From contig JAHEYQ010000017.1 in NCBI GenBank assembly GCA_023251515.1, forward strand, positions 274-64,273: 64,000 bases of DNA, given 5' to 3'. Position 1 is the stretch's first letter, and each line of letters begins with the position of its first letter. The translations under genes were made by a program, and so were the position numbers. Under the pieces are notes generated by a model. The model was not told the DNA's origin and made no database searches. It saw only the letters and a list, made by a program, of their open reading frames with translations. Origin of the DNA: Bacteroidales bacterium. GTDB lineage: Bacteria > Bacteroidota > Bacteroidia > Bacteroidales > JACABE01. Shown here piece by piece: positions 45,666 through 61,152 of this stretch.

Positions 45666-48008
45666 TTATCTTATGAGCATTACCGAACCTGGTTTGCTTC
45701 TTCTGATTCCAAGAATATCTTTGTAAATTACCAGATAATTATAAACTCCGGATGGAAGTTCGTTATTATTTGTTTTTCCATTCCAGCCGTAATTAATATC
45801 TTTTGATTCGAATACCAATTTGCCCCAGCGGTCGTAAATGTATATTTCAAATTCCTGAGTACCCATACCCATAATCTTGAATTCATCATTCAAACCATCA
45901 CCATTTGGTGTAAATGAATTTGGTACATAATAAGTACCATCTGGACGAACAATAACCCATATTTCAGTTGAGTCAATACAACCAAAAGAATTTGCTGCAA
46001 TAAGTTTTACCAAATAGCGTCCGGTATCCTGATCGCTATATGTGTGATAAAAATTAGCTTGATTTGAAGTTGCTCCGTCTCCCAAAGTCCAGTACCATGT
46101 TGTTGATGAGGTATTTCCATCCAACAGGTGTACAATTGGGCTAAAAATTGAAACTGGATTTGGAGTTGCAATTATATGAGGAACAGGTAATAAACTTGTG
46201 TTAACGGTAACGTTTGCTGCATTTACACAAGTATTTGTATCAATTCCAACTACAGTATATGTAATAGTGGTTGAAGGTGTTACAACAGGATTGCTTAAGT
46301 TTTGTTGTCCGTTCAGTGAATTATCTGGTGGATTGGAAGTCCAATGATAAGTATTTGCACCACCGGCTTGTAAATTGGCTGGTTCGTTCGGACAAATTGT
46401 TGATGGATTTGTAGTAGCAGTAACTGTTGGAAGTGGATAAACAAATACAGTAACTGTATCTGTATCAGTAAATGAGAAGAAATTAGTAGCTGTAACAACA
46501 TAAGTTGTTGTTGTGGTAGGATTTACTTTTATTGTAGCATTAGGATTTCCATTATCCCATAAATATGTTGTACCTCCCGAGGCTGTTAGAATAGCTGTGT
46601 CTCCAAGACAAATACTTGTATCAGGTCCGGCATCTGCAAATTCGCAATCAACAATAACTAACGCCGAATCTTTTGCAACTTTCAAACAGGCATCAGTTAC
46701 ATTAACTTTAAAAAGTGTAGTTGATGTAAAATTAGGGTTAACAATGGGTGTACTTCCTGCACCGTTATTCCATGAATATTGGTATGGAGTTATTCCACCA
46801 CTTGTAATTACCTTAAGTTGAGATGTATTATTACATATGGTTGTATCGCCATAAGCAGTTGCAACTAAAGAATCATAGTTCATAATGTTAAAATTGAGTG
46901 TATCCAGATCACCACAAAGCGAGGTTTGTATTACAAGTTGTATGGTTTCTGTAGGTTCTGTAATATGATCATAATATGGAGTAAGATTTAATTGTACAGA
47001 ATTTTGGCCGGTTGGAATAATTAATGTATTCGGAATTAGCGGATAATCAACACCATTGGTTGCAGTTCCTCCTATTGAAACTATAGGAATTTGATAAGGA
47101 TAGGTAACATTATAAGGATAATTGAATGTTAGAATTATATTATTACAACCTTCAATTGCATTGGTAGCTGAAACAGAAGGCATTGAATAAGCGGTATTAA
47201 TTGAAATCTGTGGGCTGCTGAAGCTATTTGCTTCTAAGAAAACGCCTGAATCATACGAAGCATCACCACAATCTGCAATTGCAAGTTTCATATGATATTG
47301 AGTACAAGGTATTACCAAAGCCCAAGCAGTTAAAACTGTTGTAAAACCGTCATACTGTATAGAAGAACCACTATTTGTAATAAAATATTGTGAGTTTGTT
47401 GTAACATTTACATTGTCAATACATACAGGTAAATTTGTATTTGGTATCAAAGCAATATTTTTATTAACATAGCTTGCTCCCAATGGATTAAAGCCTGAAA
47501 TAAAAAATCCGAAAACATCGTTAAAATTAGTATTAACAAATTCAGGATATTCTTCTGATCCAAATACATAGCGAAATTTAATTGTATCTGATAATGGTAT
47601 AAAATCAAATTCAAGAACAGCAGATTCATTGACAGTTTTATTTGGCACAAGAGCCTGAAGTTGAGGGTCATTAGTAACTGTTGCCATCCCTGAAGGAGTA
47701 GTTGTGCTTCCTGATGAATTTGGCCCAACTGCTCCGGAAATTCCACCACTACCTAAAAACAAACCACTTGTAATTCCCAGGTTAGTTGCAGTTGTACCAG
47801 TTGTAAAAGAACCCATCATAGCACCAGTTAATGGAGCCGTAGAACCATTAAATTTCACATTGCTAACTGTTACTCCGGTGCCAACAAGTATGTTTTGTAC
47901 AAGCGTTTGAGGTGTTGTTCCTGAACCAGATACAACATTCAATTGTGCTTTTGATGAAAATCCAATAGTTGTGAGCAAGGCTATAATTAATATTTTTTTT
48001 ATATACAT
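45666..48008 (-). CDS. T9SS type B cargo (gliding-motility-associated CTD) surface protein with choice-of-anchor L-like N-domain and Ig/PKD repeats
   Basis: LEFDFIP...FRYVFGSEEYPEFV...DVFGF, AIADCGDASYDSGVF, PKD WYWTLGDG, CTD VPNSFTPNGDGLNDEF...IYDRWG...G.V.LIR. Confidence 0.8.
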   Translation of the reverse strand: MYIKKILIIALLTTIGFSSKAQLNVVSGSGTTPQTLVQNILVGTGVTVSNVKFNGSTAPLTGAMMGSFTTGTTATNLGITSGLFLGSGGISGAVGPNSSGSTTTPSGMATVTNDPQLQALVPNKTVNESAVLEFDFIPLSDTIKFRYVFGSEEYPEFVNTNFNDVFGFFISGFNPLGASYVNKNIALIPNTNLPVCIDNVNVTTNSQYFITNSGSSIQYDGFTTVLTAWALVIPCTQYHMKLAIADCGDASYDSGVFLEANSFSSPQISINTAYSMPSVSATNAIEGCNNIILTFNYPYNVTYPYQIPIVSIGGTATNGVDYPLIPNTLIIPTGQNSVQLNLTPYYDHITEPTETIQLVIQTSLCGDLDTLNFNIMNYDSLVATAYGDTTICNNTSQLKVITSGGITPYQYSWNNGAGSTPIVNPNFTSTTLFKVNVTDACLKVAKDSALVIVDCEFADAGPDTSICLGDTAILTASGGTTYLWDNGNPNATIKVNPTTTTTYVVTATNFFSFTDTDTVTVFVYPLPTVTATTNPSTICPNEPANLQAGGANTYHWTSNPPDNSLNGQQNLSNPVVTPSTTITYTVVGIDTNTCVNAANVTVNTSLLPVPHIIATPNPVSIFSPIVHLLDGNTSSTTWYWTLGDGATSNQANFYHTYSDQDTGRYLVKLIAANSFGCIDSTEIWVIVRPDGTYYVPNSFTPNGDGLNDEFKIMGMGTQEFEIYIYDRWGKLVFESKDINYGWNGKTNNNELPSGVYNYLVIYKDILGIRRSKPGSVMLIR

Positions 48009-48148
48009 ATACTTAGTTATTTAAAAAATCAAAAATAGTAAAAATGTATTAATCAGACAATATCTAAGCTTAATAAGTTGCCCAAAGTTTTGTTAATAGA
48101 AATTAAGGCAACAGATTTTGGTTTTAAAAAGCGAATATATAATCTTTT

Positions 48149-49420
48149 TTATTTTGTGTAAAAGTCAATCATCCATTGGGTTGCACGTTTGCATACAGGA
48201 CAATAAGCATTGTATTTAACTGATTTCATGGTGCAATCAATATAAGGACGATAAACCCCTTTGCTCATATATCCACCACCTTCATAAACGCCAATAATTT
48301 TTTTGTTTTCTTCTGTTGCAGGTGTTGGAATTGGCGTGAATTTATTCAGCATATTTTTCCATTTGCCTTCAAAATTTACCAATGTTGTGATATTGGGTTC
48401 CCACGGTTCAACCGTTAATGGATAAAAATCTTCAACACTTACTTCTGAAGTATAATATTCGTCACCCAAGCCTGCAAAAGCATGCCCAAATTCGTGTTGA
48501 ATCAGGAAATTAGCTACAGCATTTCCGGCAGCAGCAGTGCAATAAAAATTATAAATGCCACCACCGCCATATTTTTCGGTATTACACATTATAATAATCT
48601 GATCGTAAGCAACATTGGTTAAAGCATCATGCAAAGTTTTGTTTTCCAGTGTCATCAGATATCTGTCAGAATTAATAGTGTTGAAACTACAACCAACCGC
48701 AGTTTTTACATTGAAAGTATCAATGGGGTCGGTAATGCCCGATTGAGCCGAAATGGCTGCTACTCCCCAGATATTGATTTTGTTTGCATTTTCATTAAAC
48801 GGATTGGCTTTGAGAATATAATTATTGAATTTCTCAAAATCTTTCTTCATTTTGTCAATTTCGTTTATAGTATATCCATCAGCAATAATTGCAATATCAA
48901 GCTTTTCTGAACTTTCTCCCGAAAAATGAAGGGCATTTATTTCGAATTTATTTTGTTTTGGTTTTAAAATAAAATCTTTTTTTAAGTCAATAATCATATT
49001 TTCAACATTTTGCCAGTTGTTCAAAGAGTCTCTGCTTTGAAATACAAGTTTTACCACATTTTTAGGGTAGGGGATAAGCACCGTTTCAGAAAAATTTCCG
49101 CAACTTCCTTTTCCTTCATTGGTTGTTCGCCATTCGGCAAATAAACTTGAATAAGCTCTTGAATAAATTAATATGCCTGACGCTGTATCATACATCATTA
49201 TGCGAAATTTTCCATAATCAAAGGTGTCAATCAAATTTACTTTTGATCCTGCCCAAACGTTTTTCTCTATCAGTTCGTCTAAACGATAGTATTCATGTAT
49301 GAAATTTCCTGAGTGAAAATAGTCTATCCGTAATGTTTTGTTTTCAAAATAATTACTGAACTGTGAAAATCCTTGTATTGAAAAGCAAATCAATAAGATT
49401 GAAAGTAACGTTTTTTTCAT
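48149..49420 (-). CDS. Peptidase M64 family metallopeptidase
   Basis: HEFGHAFAGLGDEY zinc motif, YEGGGY..KGVYRP...C.MK...YCPVC. Confidence 0.88.
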   Translation of the reverse strand: MKKTLLSILLICFSIQGFSQFSNYFENKTLRIDYFHSGNFIHEYYRLDELIEKNVWAGSKVNLIDTFDYGKFRIMMYDTASGILIYSRAYSSLFAEWRTTNEGKGSCGNFSETVLIPYPKNVVKLVFQSRDSLNNWQNVENMIIDLKKDFILKPKQNKFEINALHFSGESSEKLDIAIIADGYTINEIDKMKKDFEKFNNYILKANPFNENANKINIWGVAAISAQSGITDPIDTFNVKTAVGCSFNTINSDRYLMTLENKTLHDALTNVAYDQIIIMCNTEKYGGGGIYNFYCTAAAGNAVANFLIQHEFGHAFAGLGDEYYTSEVSVEDFYPLTVEPWEPNITTLVNFEGKWKNMLNKFTPIPTPATEENKKIIGVYEGGGYMSKGVYRPYIDCTMKSVKYNAYCPVCKRATQWMIDFYTK

Positions 49421-49667
49421 GATTTATGGAATTTTAATATGCGAAAATAGTTTAAATTTTATTAAAATGACGGTTTGTATTCAAATTATTTATAATTTTG
49501 TACTGCAAATTTATTAAAATGCAAAAAGTAAATAAAATAGGTTTTCCAAAAAAGATTCTTCTTTTAAACATAAAGGACAGAGATAGTTTTGTTCTGTAAA
49601 TCCCGTTATATCTATATTTTTTAAATTATTATTTTCATTCAATTTACAAACATAAAACTATTCAAAA

Positions 49668-51044
49668 ATGAATTTACCATTTGCAGAATCATACAAAATA
49701 AAGATGGTTGAACCCATCAGAAGAAGTACTCGTGAAGAAAGAGAACAATGGATAAAAGATGCCAAATACAATCTTTTCAATTTAAGAAGCGATCAGGTTT
49801 ATATTGATTTGCTAACAGATTCAGGAACAGGTGCAATGAGTGACCGTCAATGGAGCGAAATGATGCTTGGAGACGAAAGTTATGCAGGAGCTTCTTCTTA
49901 TTATAAAATGAAAAATGCTATAAGCAAAATACTTGGTTTTGAGCATTTTCTGCCAACACATCAAGGTAGAGCTGCTGAAAATGTATTGTTTTCAGTATTA
50001 GTAAAAGCCGGAGATTTTGTTCCCGGAAATTCTCATTTCGATACTACCAAAGGTCATATCGAATTTCGTAAGGCAAAAGCGATGGATTGTACTATAGATG
50101 AAGCATTTGATACAGAAATTTATCATCCTTTCAAAGGAAATATTGATTTAAATAAACTGGAAAATGTTATGAAATCGGTTCCAACCGAAAAAATTCCATT
50201 TATTATCGTTACTGTTACCTGCAATTCATCAGGTGGTCAGCCGGTTTCAATGCAAAATCTGAAAGATGTAAAGCAGATAGCCGAAAAATATGGTAAAATC
50301 GTAATTTTCGATTCAGCCCGTTTTGCCGAAAATGCCTATTTTATTAAGATGCGGGAAGAAGGCTATGCTGATAAATCTATCAAAGAGATTGTAAAAGAAA
50401 TGTTTTCGTATGCAGATGCTATGACCATGAGTAGCAAAAAAGATGCTATTGTAAATATGGGCGGTTTTATAGCAATGCGAAATGAAGAATTATGGCGTCA
50501 GGCTAGTGTTTTCAATATCATGTTCGAAGGTTATGTAACTTATGGCGGTATGTCGGGTCGTGATATGAATGCTTTGGCTCAGGGACTTGATGAAGGAACC
50601 GAATTTGATTATCTGGAAACCCGTATCAAACAAGTTGAATATTTAGGCTCTCGATTGGAAGAGTTTGGTATTCCGTTTCAGAAACCAGTTGGCGGACATG
50701 CTATTTTTATTGATGCAAAAAAAATACTTCCTGTATTGCCTAAAGAACAATATGTTGCACAAACCTTAGGTGTTGAATTGTATTTGGAAGCAGGTATCAG
50801 AGGCGTTGAAATAGGAACTTTGTTAGCTGATAGAGATCCTGTTACCCGCGAAAATCGTTATCCGATTCTGGAGCTTTTGCGTTTGGCAATTCCACGCAGA
50901 GTTTATACTAATAATCACATGGATGTAATTGCTGTTGCTTTGAAAAATGTTTTTGATCGCCGCAACGAAATTACTTCAGGCTTAAGTATTGTGAGAGAAG
51001 CTCCTATAATGAGACATTTTACAGTTGAAATGGAAAAAGTCTAA
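49668..51044 (+). CDS. tnaA: Tryptophanase (beta-eliminating lyase; tyrosine phenol-lyase not excluded)
   Basis: IDLLTDSGTGAMS, GDESYAG, HQGRAAE, DSARFAENA, PLP lysine MSSKKD, RLAIPRRVY. Confidence 0.82.
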   Translation: MNLPFAESYKIKMVEPIRRSTREEREQWIKDAKYNLFNLRSDQVYIDLLTDSGTGAMSDRQWSEMMLGDESYAGASSYYKMKNAISKILGFEHFLPTHQGRAAENVLFSVLVKAGDFVPGNSHFDTTKGHIEFRKAKAMDCTIDEAFDTEIYHPFKGNIDLNKLENVMKSVPTEKIPFIIVTVTCNSSGGQPVSMQNLKDVKQIAEKYGKIVIFDSARFAENAYFIKMREEGYADKSIKEIVKEMFSYADAMTMSSKKDAIVNMGGFIAMRNEELWRQASVFNIMFEGYVTYGGMSGRDMNALAQGLDEGTEFDYLETRIKQVEYLGSRLEEFGIPFQKPVGGHAIFIDAKKILPVLPKEQYVAQTLGVELYLEAGIRGVEIGTLLADRDPVTRENRYPILELLRLAIPRRVYTNNHMDVIAVALKNVFDRRNEITSGLSIVREAPIMRHFTVEMEKV

Positions 51045-51797: not shown

Positions 51798-54700
51798 ATG
51801 AGAAAACTTTACACGTTTTTTATGTTGTTGGTTTGCATAATGCTAACTACCGCAAATGCCCAAATTATTAAAACGGGAATTTTTGAAACAACCAAATTGC
51901 AACTCAAAGAAAATTCAGCAACACGGTTTGTTGTAAAAAATTCTGTTTCAGAGTTTAATATAACAACAGTTGTTACAGAAAAAGGAATGTTCTCAAAAAT
52001 AGAAATGCCGGGATATACACCCGGAAATGAAGTTGGAAAACCAGAATTACCTGTATTAAGAAATCTGATTGAAATTCCTTATGGCGCAAATGTAGTAGTC
52101 AATATCAAAAACGCTGAAGTTAAAACGTTTAACCTTAACTCATTGGGATATAATGGCAAGCTTATTCCTTGTCAGCCTCCTGTTTCAAAAAGTGATAAAG
52201 AAAAGAAACCACTGCAATTAGATAAAAATGAATATGCTAAGAATCAATTGCTTTCGTTACCACTGACAAATGTTGAATATCTTGGAAATATGCGAGGAGT
52301 TAGAATTGCACGCCTTAATATTTCTCCGGTTCAATATAATCCTGTTAGTAATACTATCAAAGTTTATACAAATATTGAAGCTGAAATAAAATTTGAAAAT
52401 GCTGATTTAGCGACTACTAATTCTGAAAAAAACAAAAAGTTTTCACCTTATTTCAGTAGTTTCGAATCAAGATTATTGAATTCAACAAATAAATCTGTAT
52501 TTAAAGATTCAATCTCAAAATATCCTGTAAAATATGTAATTGTTTCTGATCCAATGTTTCAGGCAACTTTACAGCCATTTATACAATGGAAAACCAAAAA
52601 GGGCTTTAAAGTGATAGAAGCTTATACCAATAATGCAGCTGTGGGAAATACAACAACATCTATTAAAAGCTATCTGCAATCATTATATAATGCAGGCACA
52701 GCCTCAGATCCCGCACCAACTTATGTTTTGTTTGTGGGCGATGTTGCTCAGATTCCTGCGTTTACAGGAAGTACAGGTAGTCATGTTACTGATTTGTATT
52801 ATTGTGAATATACCAACGATTTTTTTCCTGAAGTTTATTATGGAAGATTTTCGGCTCAAAATGTAAATCAGTTAACGCCTCAAATTGATAAAACGCTTCA
52901 ATATGAGCAATATATGATGCCTGACAAGTCTTTTTTAAACAATGTTGTAATGATAGCTGGTGTTGATGCAAGTTTTGGTCCAACACATGCTAATGGACAA
53001 GTAAACTATGGTACATCCACTTACTTTAATTCTGCAAATGGATTTAACTGTAGTAGTTATTTGTATCCTGCTTCACAAAATAGTGCAGCCCAGATTATTC
53101 AGAATGTGAGTAATGGAGTTGGTTTTGTAAATTACACTGCACATGGTGGTTCGGATGGTTGGGTTGATCCTGCTTTTAACGTTACTGATGTAGCTGGATT
53201 ACAAAATGAAGGTAAATATCCACTGATGGTTGGAAATTGTTGTGTTACCAATAAATTTGAAGTTTCGGAATGTTTTGGCGAAAGTTTATTAAGAGCCAAT
53301 AAAAAAGGAGCTATCGGATATATCGGTGCTTCAAATAATTCAACTTGGGACGAAGATTTTTGGTGGGCTTGTGGTGTTGGTACTGTTACTGCTAATCCGA
53401 CTTATGCTTCCTTAGGTTTAGGAGCTTTAGATAGAATTATGCATACTCACGGAGAACCTTTTTCTCAATGGTATGTTTCTCAAGGACAAATGATTAATGC
53501 TGGAAATCTGGCAGTAAGTCAGGGTTCTCCTTCAAGTTATGATTATTATTGGGAAATCTATCATTTGATGGGAGATCCTTCTTTGATGCCATATTTTAAA
53601 ATTCCAACTGTAATGAATGCCACTTATATGCCCTTATTGACTTTGGGAAATAGCTCATTTACAGTAAATACCGAAGCGTATGCCTATGTTGCAATTTCGA
53701 TGAATGGTGTACTAAAAGGTGCTGCTATGGCTGATTCAATGGGTGTTGCTATAGTTAATCTGAGTCCGATATCAACACCGGGTACTGTTGATCTTGTTAT
53801 TACCAAACAAAATCGTCAACCCATAATTACAACAATTCCTGTTGCAACTCCAACGGGTCCTTATGTTAATCTGAATAATTTTCAACTAACCGATGCTTCC
53901 GGAAATAACAATCAGGCAGCCGATTATGGTGAAATTATAAAAATAGATGTAAATCTAAAAAATATTGGTGTTGATGTATCTAATAATGTAACTGCCACTT
54001 TATCTTGTAATAACCAGTATATTAATATAACAGATAGTACTGAAATTTATGGAAATATAAACGCAGGAATTGAAAAAAGCGTTACTTCGGCTTATACTTT
54101 TAAAGTTGCTGATTTAGTTCCCGATCAAACAGTTGCAAATTTTACATTGAAAATAAAAGACAATGTGAATAATACATGGAGTTATAACTTCAATATTATT
54201 CTAAATGCACCTGTTTTGAATATTATAAAAATGACAATTTCAGATCCAACTCCGGCAAATAACAATAACAGATTGGATCCGGGCGAAACAGCAAGTTTTA
54301 AATTTGAAGTAAGTAATTCAGGACATGCAGATGCATTAAATACAACAGCAATCTTAAACTCACCAACTTCATTTATATCAATCAATAATCCGAATATTAA
54401 TTTAAATAGTTTTGCAAAAGGCAGTACAAATCAGTTAACTTATACAATCACTGCGAATAATACGACTTCAAATGGTGGTAGCTATTTGCTTAATTTAAAT
54501 CTAAATTCACAACCTTATTCAGTTCAGCAATCTTACAATACTTTTATTGGTATGATGGCTGAAAATTTCGAATCTGCAAATTTTACCAAATACAATTGGG
54601 ATACAGTTGAATCACATCCATGGACTATTACTAATACCGGAGCTTTTGAAGGTAGCTATTGTGCAAAATCAGGTGTAATACCAGATTCTGATACTTCAGC

Positions 54701-55259
54701 ATTTTCAATTTCAATTGACGTATTAACAAACGATAGCATCTCTTTTTACAGAAAAGTATCTTCCGAAAATAATTATGATTATCTCAATTTTTATATTGAC
54801 AATAACAAATCGGGACGTTGGGCTGGTGTTAAAGCATGGGCAAGAGTTGCTTATGCAATTACTCCCGGTCATCATTTATTAAGATGGGAATATGTAAAAG
54901 ATCAATCAACTGCTTCAGGTAGCGATTGTGCATGGGTTGATTTTATTGTTTTTCCTGCTATTCAGTCATTTGTTGGTGTTGATGAACCTAAAATAACAAA
55001 TATATCTGATTTCAGAATTTATCCAAATCCTGCTTCTGACATTATCAATCTGAATTATACTTTACTTGATGAAAATTCAGCAGTTTTGAGAATTTTTAGT
55101 ACAAATGGTCAATTGGTTTATAAAGAGGAAATTGACAAACAGTCAGCTGGAAATTATACTTCAATAGTAAATACTTCTTTTTTAAGCAGAGGGGTTTATT
55201 ATTTAACATTACAATCAAAAAATCAAATACTTACACAAAAATTAATTCTTACTAAATAA
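51798..55259 (+). CDS. C25 (gingipain-family) cysteine protease, Kgp-like, with propeptide, Ig-like repeats and T9SS type A CTD
   Basis: Propeptide GKPELPV, catalytic NYTAHG and GNCCVT, STWDEDFWW, EIYHLMGDPSL, CTD IYPNPA...GVYYL..KLILTK. Confidence 0.88.
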   Translation: MRKLYTFFMLLVCIMLTTANAQIIKTGIFETTKLQLKENSATRFVVKNSVSEFNITTVVTEKGMFSKIEMPGYTPGNEVGKPELPVLRNLIEIPYGANVVVNIKNAEVKTFNLNSLGYNGKLIPCQPPVSKSDKEKKPLQLDKNEYAKNQLLSLPLTNVEYLGNMRGVRIARLNISPVQYNPVSNTIKVYTNIEAEIKFENADLATTNSEKNKKFSPYFSSFESRLLNSTNKSVFKDSISKYPVKYVIVSDPMFQATLQPFIQWKTKKGFKVIEAYTNNAAVGNTTTSIKSYLQSLYNAGTASDPAPTYVLFVGDVAQIPAFTGSTGSHVTDLYYCEYTNDFFPEVYYGRFSAQNVNQLTPQIDKTLQYEQYMMPDKSFLNNVVMIAGVDASFGPTHANGQVNYGTSTYFNSANGFNCSSYLYPASQNSAAQIIQNVSNGVGFVNYTAHGGSDGWVDPAFNVTDVAGLQNEGKYPLMVGNCCVTNKFEVSECFGESLLRANKKGAIGYIGASNNSTWDEDFWWACGVGTVTANPTYASLGLGALDRIMHTHGEPFSQWYVSQGQMINAGNLAVSQGSPSSYDYYWEIYHLMGDPSLMPYFKIPTVMNATYMPLLTLGNSSFTVNTEAYAYVAISMNGVLKGAAMADSMGVAIVNLSPISTPGTVDLVITKQNRQPIITTIPVATPTGPYVNLNNFQLTDASGNNNQAADYGEIIKIDVNLKNIGVDVSNNVTATLSCNNQYINITDSTEIYGNINAGIEKSVTSAYTFKVADLVPDQTVANFTLKIKDNVNNTWSYNFNIILNAPVLNIIKMTISDPTPANNNNRLDPGETASFKFEVSNSGHADALNTTAILNSPTSFISINNPNINLNSFAKGSTNQLTYTITANNTTSNGGSYLLNLNLNSQPYSVQQSYNTFIGMMAENFESANFTKYNWDTVESHPWTITNTGAFEGSYCAKSGVIPDSDTSAFSISIDVLTNDSISFYRKVSSENNYDYLNFYIDNNKSGRWAGVKAWARVAYAITPGHHLLRWEYVKDQSTASGSDCAWVDFIVFPAIQSFVGVDEPKITNISDFRIYPNPASDIINLNYTLLDENSAVLRIFSTNGQLVYKEEIDKQSAGNYTSIVNTSFLSRGVYYLTLQSKNQILTQKLILTK

Positions 55260-55271
55260 TAATTTAGTTTT

Positions 55272-58200
55272 ATGATAACTAAAAGAAATATTCTAATAAT
55301 ATGCTTATTGTTAAGCATTTACATTGTAAATGCTCAAAATACAGTTTCTAAAAAGAACAATGATGTTGCTAAAATTCAGCTGATTTCTTCAGATTTAGAA
55401 ACTTCGATTGTAAAACTTTCTTTTGATAATTTTCAGACTAAAGATATTCAGACTACCAGCGGTTTATCGAAACAAATATCATTAAAAGGTGCAGTGCCAA
55501 TGCTTTTGGCTGGAGCTCCTGAAATGTTGAGTGTATCAACTTCGATAATAATTCCGGATAATGCCGAAATGGATTTAAAAGTGATTTCTGAAGATTACAC
55601 TGATTATCAGAACATAAATATTATTCCATCAAAAGGAAATCTTACCAGAGATATAAATCCTTCTTCCATTTCTTATGTTTATGGAAAACAATATCTTGTA
55701 AATGAGTTCTATCCTGGTAAATTGGCAGAATTGCAAAAACCTTATATTTTAAGAGATTATCGTGGTCAAACCATTTGTTTTTATCCATTTCAGTATAATC
55801 CGATTACTAAAGTTTTAAGGGTTTATCATACTCTTACTGTAAAAGCTACCAATATAGGTATCAGTAATTATAATACTTTGCAGAGAACCAAAGCTTTCTC
55901 TAAAGTTGATGGTGAATTTCAAAATATATATAAATCACAATTTATTAATTCTAATTCAGGAAATAATAAATATACTCCTATTGAAGAAAGTGGTAAAATG
56001 CTGATAATATGCCCAGACCAATTTATGGCTTCTGTAATGCCTTTGGTAAAATGGAGAAATATTTCAGGAATTCCAACACAGATTGTAAGTGTAACAACTG
56101 CAGGTACAACAAATACAGCAATCAAATCATATATTTCTAACTATTATACAACCAATGGATTAACTTATGTGATTTTGGTTGGGGATGTTGCTCAATTACC
56201 AACATTTACAGCTGGTGGCGGAGGTTCAGATAATACTTACGGATATTTACTTGGCAATGATCATTATCCTGAAGTTTTTGTAGGAAGAATTTCTGCTGAA
56301 AGTTTTGTGCATGTGAGTACGCAGGTTCAAAAAATATTGACCTATGAGATGAATCCTTCAAATGGAAATGGTTGGCTGAACAGAGGAACCGGAATTGGCT
56401 CTGCCGAAGGTCCCGGTGATAATAATGAATATGATTATCAACATATCAGAAATATCAGAACCAAACTGATGGCTTACGAAAATGCAGCTTGCAGCGAATT
56501 ATACGATGGTAATCAGGGTGGTGTGGATGCAACGGGAAATCCTACTGCTGCAATGGTTAGCAATGATGTAAATAATGGAGTTGGTGTTATGTATTATACC
56601 GGACACGGTTCAGATAATTCATGGGTAACAACCGGATTTTCAAACACTCAGGTGTCTTCGTTAACAAATACAACTGCCTGGCCGTTTATTTTTTCGGTTG
56701 CCTGTGTAAATGGCAATTTTACTGCGGGAACTTGTTTTGCTGAAGCTTGGATGCGTGCCACATCAAACGAACAGCCTACGGGTGCTGTAGCTACTTTGAT
56801 GTCAACTATCAATCAAAGCTGGAATCCTCCAATGTATGGACAAGATGCTATGATAGATATACTTACAGAGAGTATTCAGGGAAATATCAAAAGAACTTTT
56901 GGTGGAATTTCTATGAATGGATGTATGAAAATGAACGATCAATATACGACTCAGGGTGACGAAATGACAGATACCTGGAATATTTTTGGAGACCCAGCAT
57001 TGATGATCAGAACTGATACAGCAAAGCCAATGAATGTTACTCATAATTCGGTGATCTTTATGGGTACTACTACTTTTGCAGTAAACTGCAATATGGAAGG
57101 TGCAAGAATTACATTGAGTATTAATGATTTGCCTATTGGTTCTGCATTGGTGAGCAATGGAGTCGCTAATATTTCTTTTGCAGCATTAACCAATATTGAT
57201 AGTATTAAAGTTGTTGCAACTGCTTATAATAAAATACCTTATATCGGAACTGTTCAGATTATTGTTCCTTCAGGTCCATTTATTCAGTTAAATTCAAATC
57301 AAATAATTGATATTAATGGAAATAACAATAATATAGCTGATTATAACGAAAATATTTCTTTAAATGTTGATTTGAAAAATTTGGGAGTTGCAACGGCAAA
57401 TAATGTTAATGCAACAATTTCAACTACTGATACTTCTGTAGTTATTACAGATAATCAGCATAGTTGGGGAAATATTAATGCTGGTAATACAAACACTCAG
57501 ATTAACGCTTTTGCTGTTCATATCAAAAATAATATTGCTGATCAGCATCTGGTTAATTTTAATATGACAATTACTGATGCTTCTTCAAATACATGGAATG
57601 CAAATTTCGGATTAACTGTTAATTCTCCGCAATTGATCAGTAATAACTTCATCATAAAAGATAGTATTGTGGGAAACAATAATGGCAAACTCGATCCGGG
57701 TGAAACTGCAGTGATTTTTATTCCATCTTCAAATATCGGACATAGTAATTGCCAGAATGTAAATGCTTTGCTAACCGCTACAAGTCTTTATATAAGTATT
57801 ATAGGCTCAAATACATATAATTTTGCAAATCATAATATCGGATTAAATTATTCGGCAGGGTTTAAAGTAAAAGTAGATTCTGCAGTTCAGATTGGAAGCA
57901 ATGCTGAATTCTCATATAAACTCACTTCCGGTGCGTATCAATCTCAAACTTCATATATTCAGGCTATTGGTTTGGTAAATGAAGATTTTGAATTGGGTAA
58001 TTTTACCAAATTTAATTGGACACAAGGAACTTTTCCATGGACAATAATTACTGCAAATCCTTATGAAGGAACTTATTCTGCCAAATCAGGAGCTATTGCA
58101 AATAGTAAAACTTCGGTATTATCTGTTATGGTTAACGTTACAGCTAATGATACGATTTCTTTTTATAAGAAAACATCTTGTGAAACGTCTTCTCCAAACA

Positions 58201-59126
58201 CTCCATCTTATGATTATCTCGAATTTTTTATCGATAATACTTCAATGGGTCGCTGGGATGGTGAAACTCCCTGGTCGAAATCTGCTTTTGCAATTTCAAC
58301 TGGTGTACACACTTTAAAATGGTCGTATAAGAAAGATAATTACGGTGTTTCGGGTAGTGATTGTGCTTGGATTGATAATATAAAATTTCCGGCAGGATTT
58401 GTTAGCAAATCTCCTTTAAGTTGTATTTTAACAGCTACAGATGACAGTATTTGCGAAAATGAAAGTGTTCAGTTATTGGCTACTACAAATGGCGGACTTG
58501 GTGGTAATTCTTACAATTGGGTATCCAATCCGACAGGAGTAGTAATTTCAGGAGCCAATCCTACTGTTAATCCCACTCAAACAACAACTTATAATTTAAC
58601 TATTACTGATGCAAGTAATGCAACATATAATTCTAATATTACAATATTTGTGATACCAGCACCTTTAGCTGCAAATATAACTCAATCAGGTAATCAGTTG
58701 ATTTCAAGTTCATCTGCTAATAATCAGTGGTTTAATGAAAGTGGGATAATTGCAAACGCAACTTCAAATACATATATACCAACAAATACCGGTACTTATT
58801 ATGTAAAGGTTTTAAATTCGGAAGGGTGTTTATCAATTGCTTCTAATTCTATTTATGTGGGTTTTACCGGTATTGAAGAAAGTGAAACTGATGAAATAAA
58901 AACTTATCCAAATCCTTTTAATAATGAGTTTATTATAAATATTAAATCAATTGAATCAGCTCAAATAAATATTTATAATTCTGTCGGTCAGATTATTGAT
59001 AGCAGGATTTGTAATTGTGGTGAAAATATTAAAATAAATGCAGTAAAATATAATAAAGGTGTTTATTATATTAAGCTAAAAACGAATGATAGAATAACTA
59101 TTAGAAAAATAGTAAAAGTTGATTAA
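55272..59126 (+). CDS. C25 (gingipain-family) cysteine protease, Rgp-like, with propeptide, Ig-like repeats and T9SS type A CTD
   Basis: ILRDYRGQ propeptide, GNDHYPEVFVGR, YTGHGS, VACVNG, MSTINQSW, WNIFGDPAL, CTD TYPNPF...GVYYI..KIVK. Confidence 0.88.
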   Translation: MITKRNILIICLLLSIYIVNAQNTVSKKNNDVAKIQLISSDLETSIVKLSFDNFQTKDIQTTSGLSKQISLKGAVPMLLAGAPEMLSVSTSIIIPDNAEMDLKVISEDYTDYQNINIIPSKGNLTRDINPSSISYVYGKQYLVNEFYPGKLAELQKPYILRDYRGQTICFYPFQYNPITKVLRVYHTLTVKATNIGISNYNTLQRTKAFSKVDGEFQNIYKSQFINSNSGNNKYTPIEESGKMLIICPDQFMASVMPLVKWRNISGIPTQIVSVTTAGTTNTAIKSYISNYYTTNGLTYVILVGDVAQLPTFTAGGGGSDNTYGYLLGNDHYPEVFVGRISAESFVHVSTQVQKILTYEMNPSNGNGWLNRGTGIGSAEGPGDNNEYDYQHIRNIRTKLMAYENAACSELYDGNQGGVDATGNPTAAMVSNDVNNGVGVMYYTGHGSDNSWVTTGFSNTQVSSLTNTTAWPFIFSVACVNGNFTAGTCFAEAWMRATSNEQPTGAVATLMSTINQSWNPPMYGQDAMIDILTESIQGNIKRTFGGISMNGCMKMNDQYTTQGDEMTDTWNIFGDPALMIRTDTAKPMNVTHNSVIFMGTTTFAVNCNMEGARITLSINDLPIGSALVSNGVANISFAALTNIDSIKVVATAYNKIPYIGTVQIIVPSGPFIQLNSNQIIDINGNNNNIADYNENISLNVDLKNLGVATANNVNATISTTDTSVVITDNQHSWGNINAGNTNTQINAFAVHIKNNIADQHLVNFNMTITDASSNTWNANFGLTVNSPQLISNNFIIKDSIVGNNNGKLDPGETAVIFIPSSNIGHSNCQNVNALLTATSLYISIIGSNTYNFANHNIGLNYSAGFKVKVDSAVQIGSNAEFSYKLTSGAYQSQTSYIQAIGLVNEDFELGNFTKFNWTQGTFPWTIITANPYEGTYSAKSGAIANSKTSVLSVMVNVTANDTISFYKKTSCETSSPNTPSYDYLEFFIDNTSMGRWDGETPWSKSAFAISTGVHTLKWSYKKDNYGVSGSDCAWIDNIKFPAGFVSKSPLSCILTATDDSICENESVQLLATTNGGLGGNSYNWVSNPTGVVISGANPTVNPTQTTTYNLTITDASNATYNSNITIFVIPAPLAANITQSGNQLISSSSANNQWFNESGIIANATSNTYIPTNTGTYYVKVLNSEGCLSIASNSIYVGFTGIEESETDEIKTYPNPFNNEFIINIKSIESAQINIYNSVGQIIDSRICNCGENIKINAVKYNKGVYYIKLKTNDRITIRKIVKVD

Positions 59127-59141
59127 CCTTTAATTTAAAAT

Positions 59142-59172
59142 AAAAAAAGCCTGACTTAAGTCGGGCTTTTTT
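59142..59172. terminator. Bidirectional terminator after the C25 pair
   Basis: aaaaaaagcctgact-ta-agtcgggctttttt. Confidence 0.8.
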
Positions 59173-59331
59173 TATGTTATACCAATGTGATTTATAAATT
59201 AGTTCATTTATTAAAGGTATAATGCCGATCAGAAATATGTTATAGTTTCAAGAGCAAAGCGAATTGGACTATTACATATTTCATTTCGGTATTATTATAT
59301 GAATATCAGCAGTATAATAAAATTTATTAGT

Positions 59332-60738: not shown

Positions 60739-61152
60739 TTACTTTTCAAAGAAAAAAAAGAAAAAAGCAGCAGCCCATTTTTTATCCACATTAGGCAAAT
60801 AACCTATGGTTTGATAGTTTTGATTCTGAATTTTTCCATCTTTACCCACGTATCCTACGCATTGGTAATTTTGATTTTCTACTCTTCCGTCATCTTTTAT
60901 ATAGCCTATGGTTTGATAGTTTTGATTCTGGATTTTGCCATCTTTAATAATATATCCAATGCATTGGTAATTCTGGTTTTCTACCCTGCCATTATCTTTA
61001 ATATATCCAATAGTTTGATAATTACTATTTTGAATTCTGCCATCAGTATTTATATAACCAACTGTTTGATAGTTTTGATTTTGAGCTCTTTGTTGTGTAA
61101 ATCCGATTATTGTTATAAACAATAAAATAAGTGTTATAATTGTTTTCTTCAT
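60739..61152 (-). CDS. Secreted small protein of 17-aa tandem repeats (resembles Bacteroidetes 5-fold beta-flower proteins)
   Basis: Signal peptide, five full plus one partial [QE]NQNYQ[TC]IGYIxxDG[RK][IV] repeats, C-terminal AAAFFFFFF. Confidence 0.65.
   Translation of the reverse strand: MKKTIITLILLFITIIGFTQQRAQNQNYQTVGYINTDGRIQNSNYQTIGYIKDNGRVENQNYQCIGYIIKDGKIQNQNYQTIGYIKDDGRVENQNYQCVGYVGKDGKIQNQNYQTIGYLPNVDKKWAAAFFFFFFEK
60790..61085 (-). repeat. 51-bp tandem repeats with 102-bp higher-order periodicity
   Basis: Recurring ttgatagttttgatt and gcattggtaatt motifs alternate every 51 bp. Confidence 0.8.

What the first reader, a model, noticed from the sequence alone, without database searches (positions are those of the whole stretch)
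51798..59126. Tandem Kgp-like and Rgp-like gingipain homologs outside Porphyromonas
Seen: gene 1 has NYTAHG / GNCCVT / STWDEDFWW and gene 2 has YTGHGS / VACVNG / NEYDYQH / MSTINQSW. They are 12 bp apart with one terminator. From recalled P. gingivalis sequences, these match Kgp (NYTAHG, GNCC, SYWGED with the S1 Asp) and Rgp (NYTGHG, VACVNG, ESDIQH with the S1 Asp, STINQSW). Inference: a co-transcribed Lys- plus Arg-specific pair giving trypsin-like coverage, possibly reflecting an ancestral arrangement of genes that are unlinked in the pathogen.
Basis: partly seen in the sequence, partly recalled or inferred. Interest (0 to 1): 0.65.

Follow-up and report, generated by a model that had tools for sequence, protein, structure and literature searches.

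The report
Lys- and Arg-gingipain-type protease operon
An uncultured environmental Bacteroidales bacterium carries, back to back, a Lys-gingipain-type and an Arg-gingipain-type secreted protease gene. The pair is real, but it is a typical copy of a gene pair found in dozens of Bacteroidales families, so it is an ordinary member of a widespread and little-studied arrangement.

Summary
Two co-oriented ORFs, g1 (51798-55259, 1153 aa) and g2 (55272-59126, 1284 aa), lie 12 nt apart. A strong hairpin terminator follows g2 only. Both have the gingipain layout: signal peptide, C25 propeptide, C25 catalytic domain, Ig-like domain and T9SS sorting domain.

- **Subfamily:** g1 matches solved Kgp far better than RgpB (E 2.6e-91 vs 1.3e-29). 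g2 does the reverse (4.3e-94 vs 1.2e-11). In a tree rooted on PorU, g1 falls with Kgp (100/100) and g2 with RgpB (99/99).
- **Active sites:** all catalytic residues are kept. All ten RgpB S1-pocket residues and five of seven Kgp S1 residues are identical, and the other two are conservative changes. Lys versus Arg specificity is therefore well inferred but not assayed.
- **Distribution:** the pair is not rare. Among 301 species genomes sampled across the order, about 55% have a Kgp-type gene and about 38% an Rgp-type gene. At least 53 genomes from 33 families carry the same K-then-R tandem. All 50 fetched loci confirmed it; with one further K-then-R locus the median gap is 38 nt (51 loci).
- **Co-divergence:** the two genes diverged together (Mantel r 0.69).

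The arrangement probably predates the unlinked genes of P. gingivalis. This is a new member of a known kind, of moderate-to-low interest.

The parts
51798..55259 (+). g1: Kgp-type (Lys-gingipain-type) C25 cysteine peptidase precursor, 1153 aa
   Evidence: ORF. Pfam Propeptide_C25, Peptidase_C25, Peptidase_C25_C and Por_Secre_tail. Best solved relative is Kgp 4rbm at E 2.6e-91, against RgpB at 1.3e-29. Kgp clade 100/100.
51798..51860 (+). g1 signal peptide (aa 1-21, ...TTANA|Q); Gln at +1
   Evidence: Read from the sequence. The cleavage site is inferred. Gln at +1 fits the Bacteroidetes 'Q-rule' (own knowledge).
51861..52505 (+). g1 inhibitory prodomain (aa 22-236), predicted to end at K236|D237
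   Evidence: PF08126 E 1.8e-19. Matches the Kgp prodomain 5mun at E 5.5e-41. A conserved basic-acidic site lies at aa 236/237 in 56 K-type sequences: K 30, R 20, followed by D/E in 43.
52506..53603 (+). g1 catalytic domain. D390/H449/C482 correspond to Kgp D388/H444/C477. S1 pocket: T447, N480, C481, W517, D520, plus V456 (Kgp A451) and F521 (Kgp Y517).
   Evidence: Alignment to 4rbm. Site conservation 57/57 for D388, H444, N475, C477, W513 and D516. Residue roles from PMC6426963.
53604..53852 (+). g1 IgSF ('tooth root') domain
   Evidence: PF03785 E 1.3e-16. Aligned to Kgp through chain residue 455.
53853..54512 (+). g1 two Ig-like (CARDB-like) beta-sandwich domains
   Evidence: Weak CARDB hit, E 8.7e-4. 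AF2 model with pLDDT mostly above 90, all-beta. Foldseek hits are generic Ig-type domains.
54513..54968 (+). g1 jelly-roll (CBM/MAM-like) module, probably a binding domain
   Evidence: AF2 pLDDT 82. Foldseek best hits are CBM22/61/16 and meprin MAM, TM 0.55-0.63. No Pfam, NCBIfam or PDB sequence hit.
55017..55256 (+). g1 T9SS type A C-terminal sorting domain
   Evidence: PF18962 E 1.4e-12; TIGR04183 E 1.8e-11.
55260..55271 (+). 12-nt intergenic spacer, too short for a terminator hairpin or a promoter
55272..59126 (+). g2: Rgp-type (Arg-gingipain-type) C25 cysteine peptidase precursor, 1284 aa
   Evidence: ORF. Same four Pfam domains. Best solved relative is RgpB 4ief at E 4.3e-94, against Kgp at 1.2e-11. 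RgpB clade 99/99.
55335..55970 (+). g2 prodomain (aa 22-233) ending ...NNK233|Y234TPIEE. The P1 residue is Lys, where P. gingivalis Rgp has Arg.
   Evidence: PF08126 E 1.6e-32. Matches the RgpB prodomain 4ief_A at E 8.5e-35, and the mature RgpB N-terminus YTPVEE aligns to g2 Y234. Junction survey: K 31, R 16, other 9 of 56.
55971..57023 (+). g2 catalytic domain. H445/C478 (E379) correspond to RgpB H211/C244 (E152). S1 pocket: D388, T443, G444, G446, V476, Q515, W517, M521, all identical to RgpB.
   Evidence: Alignment to 4ief_B and 1cvr. 57/57 conservation of D163, H211, G212, V242, C244, Q282, W284 and M288. Residue roles from PMC9559808.
57024..57266 (+). g2 IgSF domain
   Evidence: PF03785 E 8.4e-15.
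57267..58400 (+). g2 two Ig-like domains plus the jelly-roll module, colinear with g1 (36% and 51% identity)
58401..58895 (+). g2-specific extra Ig-like region (about 165 aa) that g1 lacks
   Evidence: Weak Ig_7 (CHU_C-associated) hit, E 1.1e-4. Unaligned to g1.
58896..59123 (+). g2 T9SS type A C-terminal sorting domain
   Evidence: PF18962 E 8.8e-10; TIGR04183 E 1.5e-10.
59140..59175 (+). Intrinsic-terminator-like hairpin with a U-run after g2
   Evidence: -20.7 kcal/mol, z -7.2, 0 of 200 shuffles as stable. Sequence.

Best explanation
The locus is a two-gene operon for two T9SS-secreted, cell-surface cysteine endopeptidases of the gingipain family (MEROPS C25). It belongs to a free-living, uncultured, low-GC Bacteroidales bacterium. 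The upstream gene encodes a Kgp-type enzyme predicted to cut after Lys. The downstream gene encodes an Rgp-type enzyme predicted to cut after Arg.

Each protein is made as a zymogen. It would be exported by Sec, passed through the T9SS by its C-terminal sorting domain and handled by the genome's PorU sortase. It becomes active when the N-terminal prodomain is cut off at a basic residue. In this window both predicted junctions carry Lys (g1 K236|D237, g2 K233|Y234), so the Lys-specific partner is the natural candidate to activate both.

Together the two enzymes would cleave proteins after both basic residues and supply peptides for growth. The post-catalytic Ig-like and jelly-roll modules probably serve as stalk and binding parts.

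Shown: gene structure, domain content, subfamily membership, conservation of catalytic and S1 residues, presence of PorU, and conservation of the tandem. Inferred: specificity, co-transcription, activation order and nutritional role.
For: - **Domains:**
- **Reciprocal best matches to solved Kgp and RgpB:**
- **Tree rooted on PorU:** g1 with Kgp at 100/100 and g2 with RgpB at 99/99.
- **Active sites:** the Kgp triad, five of seven Kgp S1 residues (two conservative changes) and all ten listed RgpB S1 residues are identical in the window. The core residues are invariant in 57/57 relatives of each type. Residue roles come from PMC6426963 and PMC9559808.
- **Secretion machinery:** the genome encodes exactly one K-type, one R-type and one PorU (NF033707, 1268 bits).
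- **Operon signals:** 12-nt gap and a single strong terminator.
- **Conservation of the tandem:** the K-then-R tandem on the same strand occurs in 53 of the listed genomes, from 33 families. All 50 fetched loci were confirmed. In 51 K-then-R loci (these 50 plus L093) the median intergenic gap is 38 nt and 31 gaps are 50 nt or less. Distances between partners are correlated (Mantel r 0.685, 0 of 2000 permutations as high).
- **Prodomain junctions:** a basic residue is present in about 84-89% of relatives.
- **Neighbourhood:** an M64 peptidase, another T9SS cargo protein and a beta-eliminating lyase sit nearby, which suits a proteolytic, amino-acid-using lifestyle.
Against: - No enzyme of this environmental clade has been assayed, so specificity rests on alignment at 40-45% identity to the solved enzymes.
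- Two Kgp S1-lining residues differ in g1 (A451V, Y517F).
An internal promoter in the 3' end of g1 cannot be excluded; the sigma-70 scan is uninformative for Bacteroidota.
- The g1 prodomain junction is placed by alignment and conservation, not by experiment.
- Junction residues in the two partners do not change together once phylogeny is taken into account. A selected 'one activator for both' design is therefore not supported by comparative data.
Confidence: 0.82

Rival explanations
1. The two genes are recent lineage-specific paralogues with the same, or no particular, P1 specificity. On this reading the Kgp/Rgp resemblance is superficial motif similarity.
For: Both share one architecture and are colinear over about 1100 residues. 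The jelly-roll module is 51% identical between them.
Against: The catalytic domains are only 32% identical to each other, but 40-45% identical to Kgp and RgpB respectively, with E-value gaps of 60 to 80 orders of magnitude. They fall in separate, strongly supported clades, each containing the P. gingivalis enzyme. The S1 Asp sits at different, subfamily-specific positions (D520 vs D388), invariant in 57/57 relatives. There are no near-identical DNA tracts between the genes.
Confidence: 0.04
2. One or both proteins are not degradative endopeptidases. Instead they would be PorU-like sortase/transpeptidases or processing enzymes for other T9SS cargo.
For: PorU is itself a C25 member. Gingipains in P. 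gingivalis also process other surface proteins (PMC10394638).
Against: The genome has a separate bona fide PorU (NF033707, 1268 bits). PorU orthologues form the outgroup on a branch 1.75 changes per site long. g1 and g2 have the inhibitory prodomain and their own T9SS sorting domains, like secreted gingipains.
Confidence: 0.05
3. The pair is adjacent but independently transcribed, and the tandem persists only through shared descent with no functional coupling.
For: Four genomes have the reverse order, R then K (L095-L098). One has an S8 subtilase gene between the two (L094). Some gaps reach 150-412 nt. Many genomes have only one of the two types.
Against: A 12-nt gap with no hairpin here and a single terminator after g2. 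31 of 51 relatives have gaps of 50 nt or less. Adjacency is kept in 33 families, down to about 50% amino-acid identity between relatives.
Confidence: 0.12

Closest known systems
Lys-gingipain Kgp of Porphyromonas gingivalis (MEROPS C25; PDB 4RBM, 4TKX, 6I9A; prodomain 5MUN)
   Same: - Prodomain, catalytic domain and IgSF domain align end to end with g1 (E 2.6e-91 and 5.5e-41).
- The triad D388/H444/C477 is kept.
- S1 residues T442, N475, C476, W513 and D516 are identical.
- Both carry a T9SS sorting domain.
- g1 falls in the same clade.
   Different: - About 40-45% identity only.
- g1 has no haemagglutinin/adhesin region: there is no Cleaved_Adhesin or DUF2436 hit. It has two Ig-like domains and a CBM/MAM-like jelly-roll instead.
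- A451V and Y517F line the pocket.
- The prodomain junction has Lys where Kgp has Arg.
- The gene lies directly upstream of an Rgp-type gene. In P. gingivalis, kgp (PGN_1728) is far from rgpA (PGN_1970) and rgpB (PGN_1466) (PMC8861167).
- The host is a free-living bacterium.
Arg-gingipain RgpB of P. gingivalis (PDB 1CVR, 4IEF)
   Same: - g2 aligns from the mature N-terminus YTP(V/I)EE to the end of the IgSF domain (E 4.3e-94).
- H211/C244/E152 are identical.
- All listed S1 residues are identical: D163, T209, G210, G212, V242, Q282, W284, M288.
- The prodomain is homologous (E 8.5e-35).
- Both carry a T9SS sorting domain.
   Different: - g2 is 1284 aa, with about 540 extra residues of Ig-like and jelly-roll modules between the IgSF domain and the sorting domain. 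That matches neither RgpB (short) nor RgpA (adhesin domains).
- The P1 residue at the prodomain junction is Lys rather than Arg, so self-activation by an Arg-specific enzyme is not expected at that site.
Environmental C25 'gingipain-like' exported peptidases of anoxic sediments and MAGs (PMC6752024; Thermoprofundales, PMC6461988)
   Same: Uncultured anaerobes encode abundant secreted C25 peptidases that are thought to feed on detrital protein. In one estuarine sediment C25 made up 41-45% of signal-peptide-bearing peptidase genes.
   Different: Those reports treat C25 as one Arg-preferring class. They do not separate Kgp-type from Rgp-type or describe the paired operon. In six literature searches I found no paper that does.
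PorU, the T9SS sortase (C25; NCBIfam NF033707)
   Same: Same Pfam catalytic family. It is present in the same genome.
   Different: It is the outgroup to both genes and has a different architecture. g1 and g2 do not hit NF033707.

Membership tests
MEROPS C25 / Pfam PF01364 gingipain family | Peptidase_C25 catalytic domain above the curated cut-off | tested here: met
   g1 212 bits and g2 188 bits against a cut-off of 23.
MEROPS C25 / Pfam PF01364 gingipain family | Catalytic Cys-His dyad in the conserved contexts | tested here: met
   g1 H449/C482 and g2 H445/C478 align to Kgp H444/C477 and RgpB H211/C244. Invariant in 57/57 relatives.
Secreted gingipains (Kgp/Rgp), as opposed to PorU | N-terminal inhibitory prodomain (PF08126), IgSF domain (PF03785) and T9SS C-terminal sorting domain | tested here: met
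   All three are found in both proteins. No NF033707 hit, and PorU is the outgroup.
Kgp subfamily (Lys-specific) | Clusters with Kgp to the exclusion of Rgp and PorU | tested here: met
   A 22-row clade holding g1 and PDB Kgp has 100/100 support. phmmer gives 310 bits to Kgp against 106 bits to RgpB.
Kgp subfamily (Lys-specific) | S1 pocket: D516 salt bridge, T442, N475, C476, W513, A451, Y517, plus the third triad residue D388 | tested here: met
   D520, T447, N480, C481, W517 and D390 are identical. A451V and Y517F are conservative changes. Residue roles from PMC6426963.
Rgp subfamily (Arg-specific) | Clusters with RgpB to the exclusion of Kgp and PorU | tested here: met
   A 21-row clade holding g2 and PDB RgpB has 99/99 support. 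phmmer gives 319 bits to RgpB against 46 bits to Kgp.
Rgp subfamily (Arg-specific) | S1 pocket: D163 anchor, T209, G210, G212, V242, Q282, W284 lid, M288 | tested here: met
   All are identical in g2: D388, T443, G444, G446, V476, Q515, W517, M521. Residue roles from PMC9559808.
Kgp / RgpA proteinase-adhesin polyproteins | C-terminal haemagglutinin/adhesin region (Cleaved_Adhesin PF07675, DUF2436) | tested here: not met
   There are no such Pfam hits even at E up to 10 on the C-terminal parts. The jelly-roll module has no sequence match to any solved structure, and its best fold matches are CBMs and MAM. The genes therefore belong to the Kgp and Rgp catalytic subfamilies but are not proteinase-adhesin polyproteins.
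Kgp / Rgp | Measured cleavage after Lys or after Arg | not testable with these tools
   Needs enzyme assays.
Operon | One transcript covering both genes | not testable with these tools
Only the spacing and the terminator speak for it.

The most novel reading that the evidence does not exclude
The K-then-R operon may be the ancestral protein-foraging module of the order, from which the scattered gingipain genes of P. gingivalis descend. It may also work as a two-enzyme zymogen cascade. In this bacterium both prodomain junctions carry Lys, so the Lys-specific enzyme would be the master activator of itself and of its Arg-specific partner. That is the reverse of P. gingivalis, where the mature Rgp N-terminus (YTPVEE; Tyr228 in RgpA, PMC10319874) and the Kgp N-terminus follow Arg residues, as I recall, and Rgp drives maturation.
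Probability: 0.25. Interest if true: 0.55.

Novelty: new member of a known kind. Interest (0 to 1): 0.36.

Why it matters
Gingipains are usually presented as virulence factors peculiar to P. gingivalis and its closest relatives (PMC10394638). They are absent from other Porphyromonas species (PMC8861167).

This locus and its relatives show that the split into a Lys-specific and an Arg-specific enzyme is old. It is spread over dozens of mostly environmental Bacteroidales families, typically as one compact gene pair.

That recasts the pathogen's enzymes as a re-tooled version of a common nutrient-acquisition kit: adhesin domains added and genes dispersed. It also suggests that the 'gingipain-like' activity measured in anoxic sediments (PMC6752024) has a Lys-specific half, which Arg substrates alone would miss.

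The window itself adds only one more typical example, so its individual value is modest.

Tried and rejected
1. **Coordinated K/R switch at the two prodomain junctions.** Raw counts look concordant (K,K 22; R,R 10; mixed 12). Phylogenetically independent contrasts give no support: of 7 pairs, 0.7 go the same way, 2.0 the other way and 4.2 show no difference. Rejected as evidence for a selected single-activator design.
2. **Gene conversion between the two genes, as seen elsewhere in this scan.** None here: the longest shared DNA tract is 55 nt at 76% identity. It does occur in relatives: L094 has 1,962 nt at 99.9% and L045 has 1,419 nt at 98%.
3. **Homology of the jelly-roll module to the gingipain haemagglutinin/adhesin domains.** There are no Pfam, NCBIfam or PDB sequence hits. 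Fold matches are generic CBM/MAM jelly-rolls, and no gingipain adhesin domain appears in the top 50. Left open, not supported.
4. **Locating P. gingivalis among the unnamed held genomes to check gene linkage directly.** The two families whose enzymes are nearest to Kgp and RgpB (f33 with 77 genomes, f34 with 57) contain no hit above 50% identity, so neither is Porphyromonas. The unlinked state in the pathogen therefore rests on the published locus tags PGN_1970, PGN_1466 and PGN_1728 (PMC8861167).
6. **The generic promoter and terminator scan.** It gave promoter-like sites at background frequency and missed the real hairpin.
7. **Fold search with the whole three-domain C-terminal model.** It returned only generic Ig-type hits with low TM scores, so the last domain was modelled on its own.


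Full report
**1. The observation**

The window holds two long co-oriented ORFs exactly where stated: g1 at 51798-55259 (1153 aa) and g2 at 55272-59126 (1284 aa). The stop of g1 and the ATG of g2 are 12 nt apart.

Fourteen nucleotides after the g2 stop there is a 16-bp hairpin followed by a U-run (59140-59175). It folds at -20.7 kcal/mol, z = -7.2, and none of 200 shuffles is as stable. The generic scan missed it and found no credible terminator between the genes.

**2. What the proteins are**

Both proteins carry the same four Pfam domains well above cut-off: Propeptide_C25, Peptidase_C25, the C25 C-terminal Ig-like domain and the T9SS sorting domain (TIGR04183). Both start with a signal peptide ending ...NA|Q.

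| Query | Kgp catalytic + Ig domains | RgpB catalytic domain | Own-type prodomain |
|---|---|---|---|
| g1 | E 2.6e-91 (310 bits) | E 1.3e-29 | Kgp prodomain, 5.5e-41 |
| g2 | E 1.2e-11 | E 4.3e-94 (319 bits) | RgpB prodomain, 8.5e-35 |

The alignment of g2 to RgpB begins exactly at the mature N-terminus: YTPVEE in RgpB, YTPIEE in g2.

**3. Subfamily test**

I built a maximum-likelihood tree of 51 catalytic domains. It included g1, g2, the two solved P. gingivalis enzymes (sequences copied from the tool alignments), homologues from related loci and seven PorU orthologues as outgroup.

The tree places g1 and Kgp in a 22-member clade (100/100) and g2 and RgpB in a 21-member clade (99/99). PorU is separated by a long branch. 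The window's genome contains exactly three C25 genes: these two and a bona fide PorU.

**4. Active sites**

Residue roles were taken from the Kgp-inhibitor structure paper (PMC6426963) and a review of the RgpB structure (PMC9559808).

- **g1:** it keeps the Kgp triad (D390/H449/C482 for D388/H444/C477). It also keeps S1 residues T447, N480, C481, W517 and the salt-bridge residue D520 (= D516). Two lining residues change conservatively (A451V, Y517F).
- **g2:** it keeps H445/C478/E379 and all eight listed S1 residues of RgpB: D388 (= D163), T443, G444, G446, V476, Q515, W517, M521.
- **Relatives:** across 57 sequences of each type, the core positions are invariant.

Lys versus Arg specificity is therefore a strong inference, but nothing here measures it.

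**5. Architecture beyond the gingipain core**

Between the IgSF domain and the sorting domain, both proteins have about 370 residues that no Pfam model describes well (a weak CARDB hit only). An AlphaFold model (pLDDT 86) shows three beta-sandwich domains.

The last domain was modelled alone (pLDDT 82). It is a jelly-roll whose best fold matches are carbohydrate-binding modules and the MAM domains of meprin and LAST-MAM (TM 0.55-0.63).

There is no Cleaved_Adhesin or DUF2436 signal. These are therefore not proteinase-adhesin polyproteins like Kgp and RgpA (architecture in PMC10319874).

g1 and g2 are colinear. The jelly-roll is their most similar part (51% identity, against 32% for the catalytic domains). 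There is no near-identical DNA between them. g2 has an extra Ig-like region of about 165 aa.

**6. How common the pair is**

The catalytic domain of g1 alone finds more than 4,900 protein clusters in the public collection. Many are annotated only as 'C25 family cysteine peptidase'.

Among 301 species-representative genomes drawn evenly from the window's order:
- 198 match g1, about 166 of them at E < 1e-80.
- 144 match g2 at E <= 1e-40, about 115 of them at E < 1e-80 (the E < 1e-80 counts are my tallies from the tables).

Crossing the two truncated place lists gave 53 genomes in 33 families with a K-type gene followed, on the same strand and 3.3-4.4 kb downstream, by an R-type gene. All 50 such regions that I fetched showed abutting reading frames. 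Four genomes have the reverse order. One has an S8 subtilase gene inserted between the two.

Independently, every one of the 13 loci from named MAGs where downstream sequence exists has a second C25 gene directly downstream (36-94% identical to g2 in the catalytic domain). The bin names include Lentimicrobiaceae, Prolixibacteraceae and freshwater-lake Bacteroidales bins.

In 51 K-then-R loci (the 50 plus L093) the median gap is 38 nt, and 31 gaps are 50 nt or less. Pairwise distances among K-type genes correlate with those among their R-type partners (Mantel r 0.685, 0 of 2000 permutations as high). The pair has therefore been inherited as a unit for a long time.

Earlier notes of this scan had met the same K/R tandem in at least three other genomes. 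I treated those as leads; my counts are independent of them.

**7. Relation to P. gingivalis**

In ATCC 33277 the three gingipain genes are PGN_1970 (rgpA), PGN_1466 (rgpB) and PGN_1728 (kgp) (PMC8861167). They are hundreds of genes apart.

Other Porphyromonas species lack gingipain orthologues (same paper). A Porphyromonas-wide study found them only in the gingivalis-gulae-loveana group (PMC10394638).

In my tree the nearest relatives of both Kgp and RgpB come from one genome (G033), where the K-type and R-type genes lie 9 kb apart on one strand. Another genome in the Kgp-proximal clade (G289) has the direct tandem. Linkage is thus found on both sides of the deepest split within each subfamily. 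This makes the tandem the likely ancestral state and the pathogen's scattered genes the derived one.

Vertical descent versus horizontal acquisition therefore stays open.

**8. Mechanism**

The best-supported account is a secreted, T9SS-dependent pair of zymogens that together cut after Lys and Arg and feed a proteolytic, amino-acid-using anaerobe. The neighbouring genes suit this: an M64 peptidase, another T9SS cargo protein and a beta-eliminating lyase lie just upstream.

One feature adds a possible reason for the coupling. The residue before the mature N-terminus of the R-type enzyme is Lys in the window and in 31 of 56 relatives. It is Arg in 16. The K-type enzymes have a conserved (K/R)|(D/E) site at the equivalent junction, which is K236|D237 in g1.

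With Lys at both junctions, the Lys-specific enzyme could activate both proteins here. An Arg-specific g2 could not remove its own prodomain at that site.

The apparent concordance of junction residues between partners disappears under independent contrasts. I therefore present the cascade as a hypothesis, not a finding.

**9. Verdict**

What does not hold is the implied rarity. C25 peptidases are already known to dominate the exported peptidase genes of anoxic sediments (PMC6752024), and both gingipain subfamilies are common in Bacteroidales.

I found no paper that describes the conserved Kgp-type/Rgp-type operon. That is a small but real gap in the literature. This window is simply one typical instance: a new member of a known kind, of moderate-to-low interest.

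Noticed in passing
window 54513-54968 (g1 aa 906-1057) and 57927-58400 (g2 aa 886-1043): This roughly 150-aa jelly-roll module has no Pfam or NCBIfam model. A profile built from 25 copies finds 15,313 representative proteins (11,280 at E <= 1e-10). Many carry numerous tandem copies, up to 33 in a 7,781-aa protein. It looks like a very widespread, uncatalogued repeat domain with a CBM/MAM-like fold.
   Followed up: partly
L094 (G033:C11:46000-60700) and L045: In some relatives the K-type and R-type genes share long, nearly identical 3' tails: 1,962 nt at 99.9% in L094 and 1,419 nt at 98% in L045. This indicates gene conversion of the non-catalytic part. In L094 a T9SS-secreted S8 subtilase gene sits between the two.
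   Followed up: partly
L095-L098 (G222, G094, G123, G243): Four genomes have the reverse gene order, R-type then K-type, again with abutting frames.
   Followed up: no
alignment of 57 R-type catalytic domains: The position of RgpB Glu152, often listed as a third catalytic residue, is Gln in 33 of 57 environmental R-type enzymes. It is Glu in the window. This suggests the residue is not essential across the subfamily.
   Followed up: no
L093 (G289:C91:2800-13500): A K-then-R tandem whose two proteins both end in dockerin-like calcium-binding repeats before the T9SS sorting domain. This is read from the translations; no Pfam search was run on them.
   Followed up: no
window 60739-61152 (-): A small secreted protein made of QNYQ(T/C)(I/V)GY(I/V)...DG(R/K)(I/V)(Q/E)N repeats. 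It matches Pfam Bflower_2 (5-fold beta-flower) at E 1.9e-35.
   Followed up: no
window 45666-51044: Just upstream lie a CHU_C-type T9SS cargo protein with PKD and SprB repeats, an M64 (IgA-peptidase family) metallopeptidase and a beta-eliminating lyase of the tryptophanase / tyrosine phenol-lyase family. This makes a small cluster of protein- and amino-acid-degrading functions.
   Followed up: no
L014 and L016: K-type genes 52-60% identical to g1 in the catalytic domain sit on short contigs binned as Cloacimonadota and Zixiibacteriota. This is either horizontal transfer out of Bacteroidota or mis-binning.
   Followed up: no
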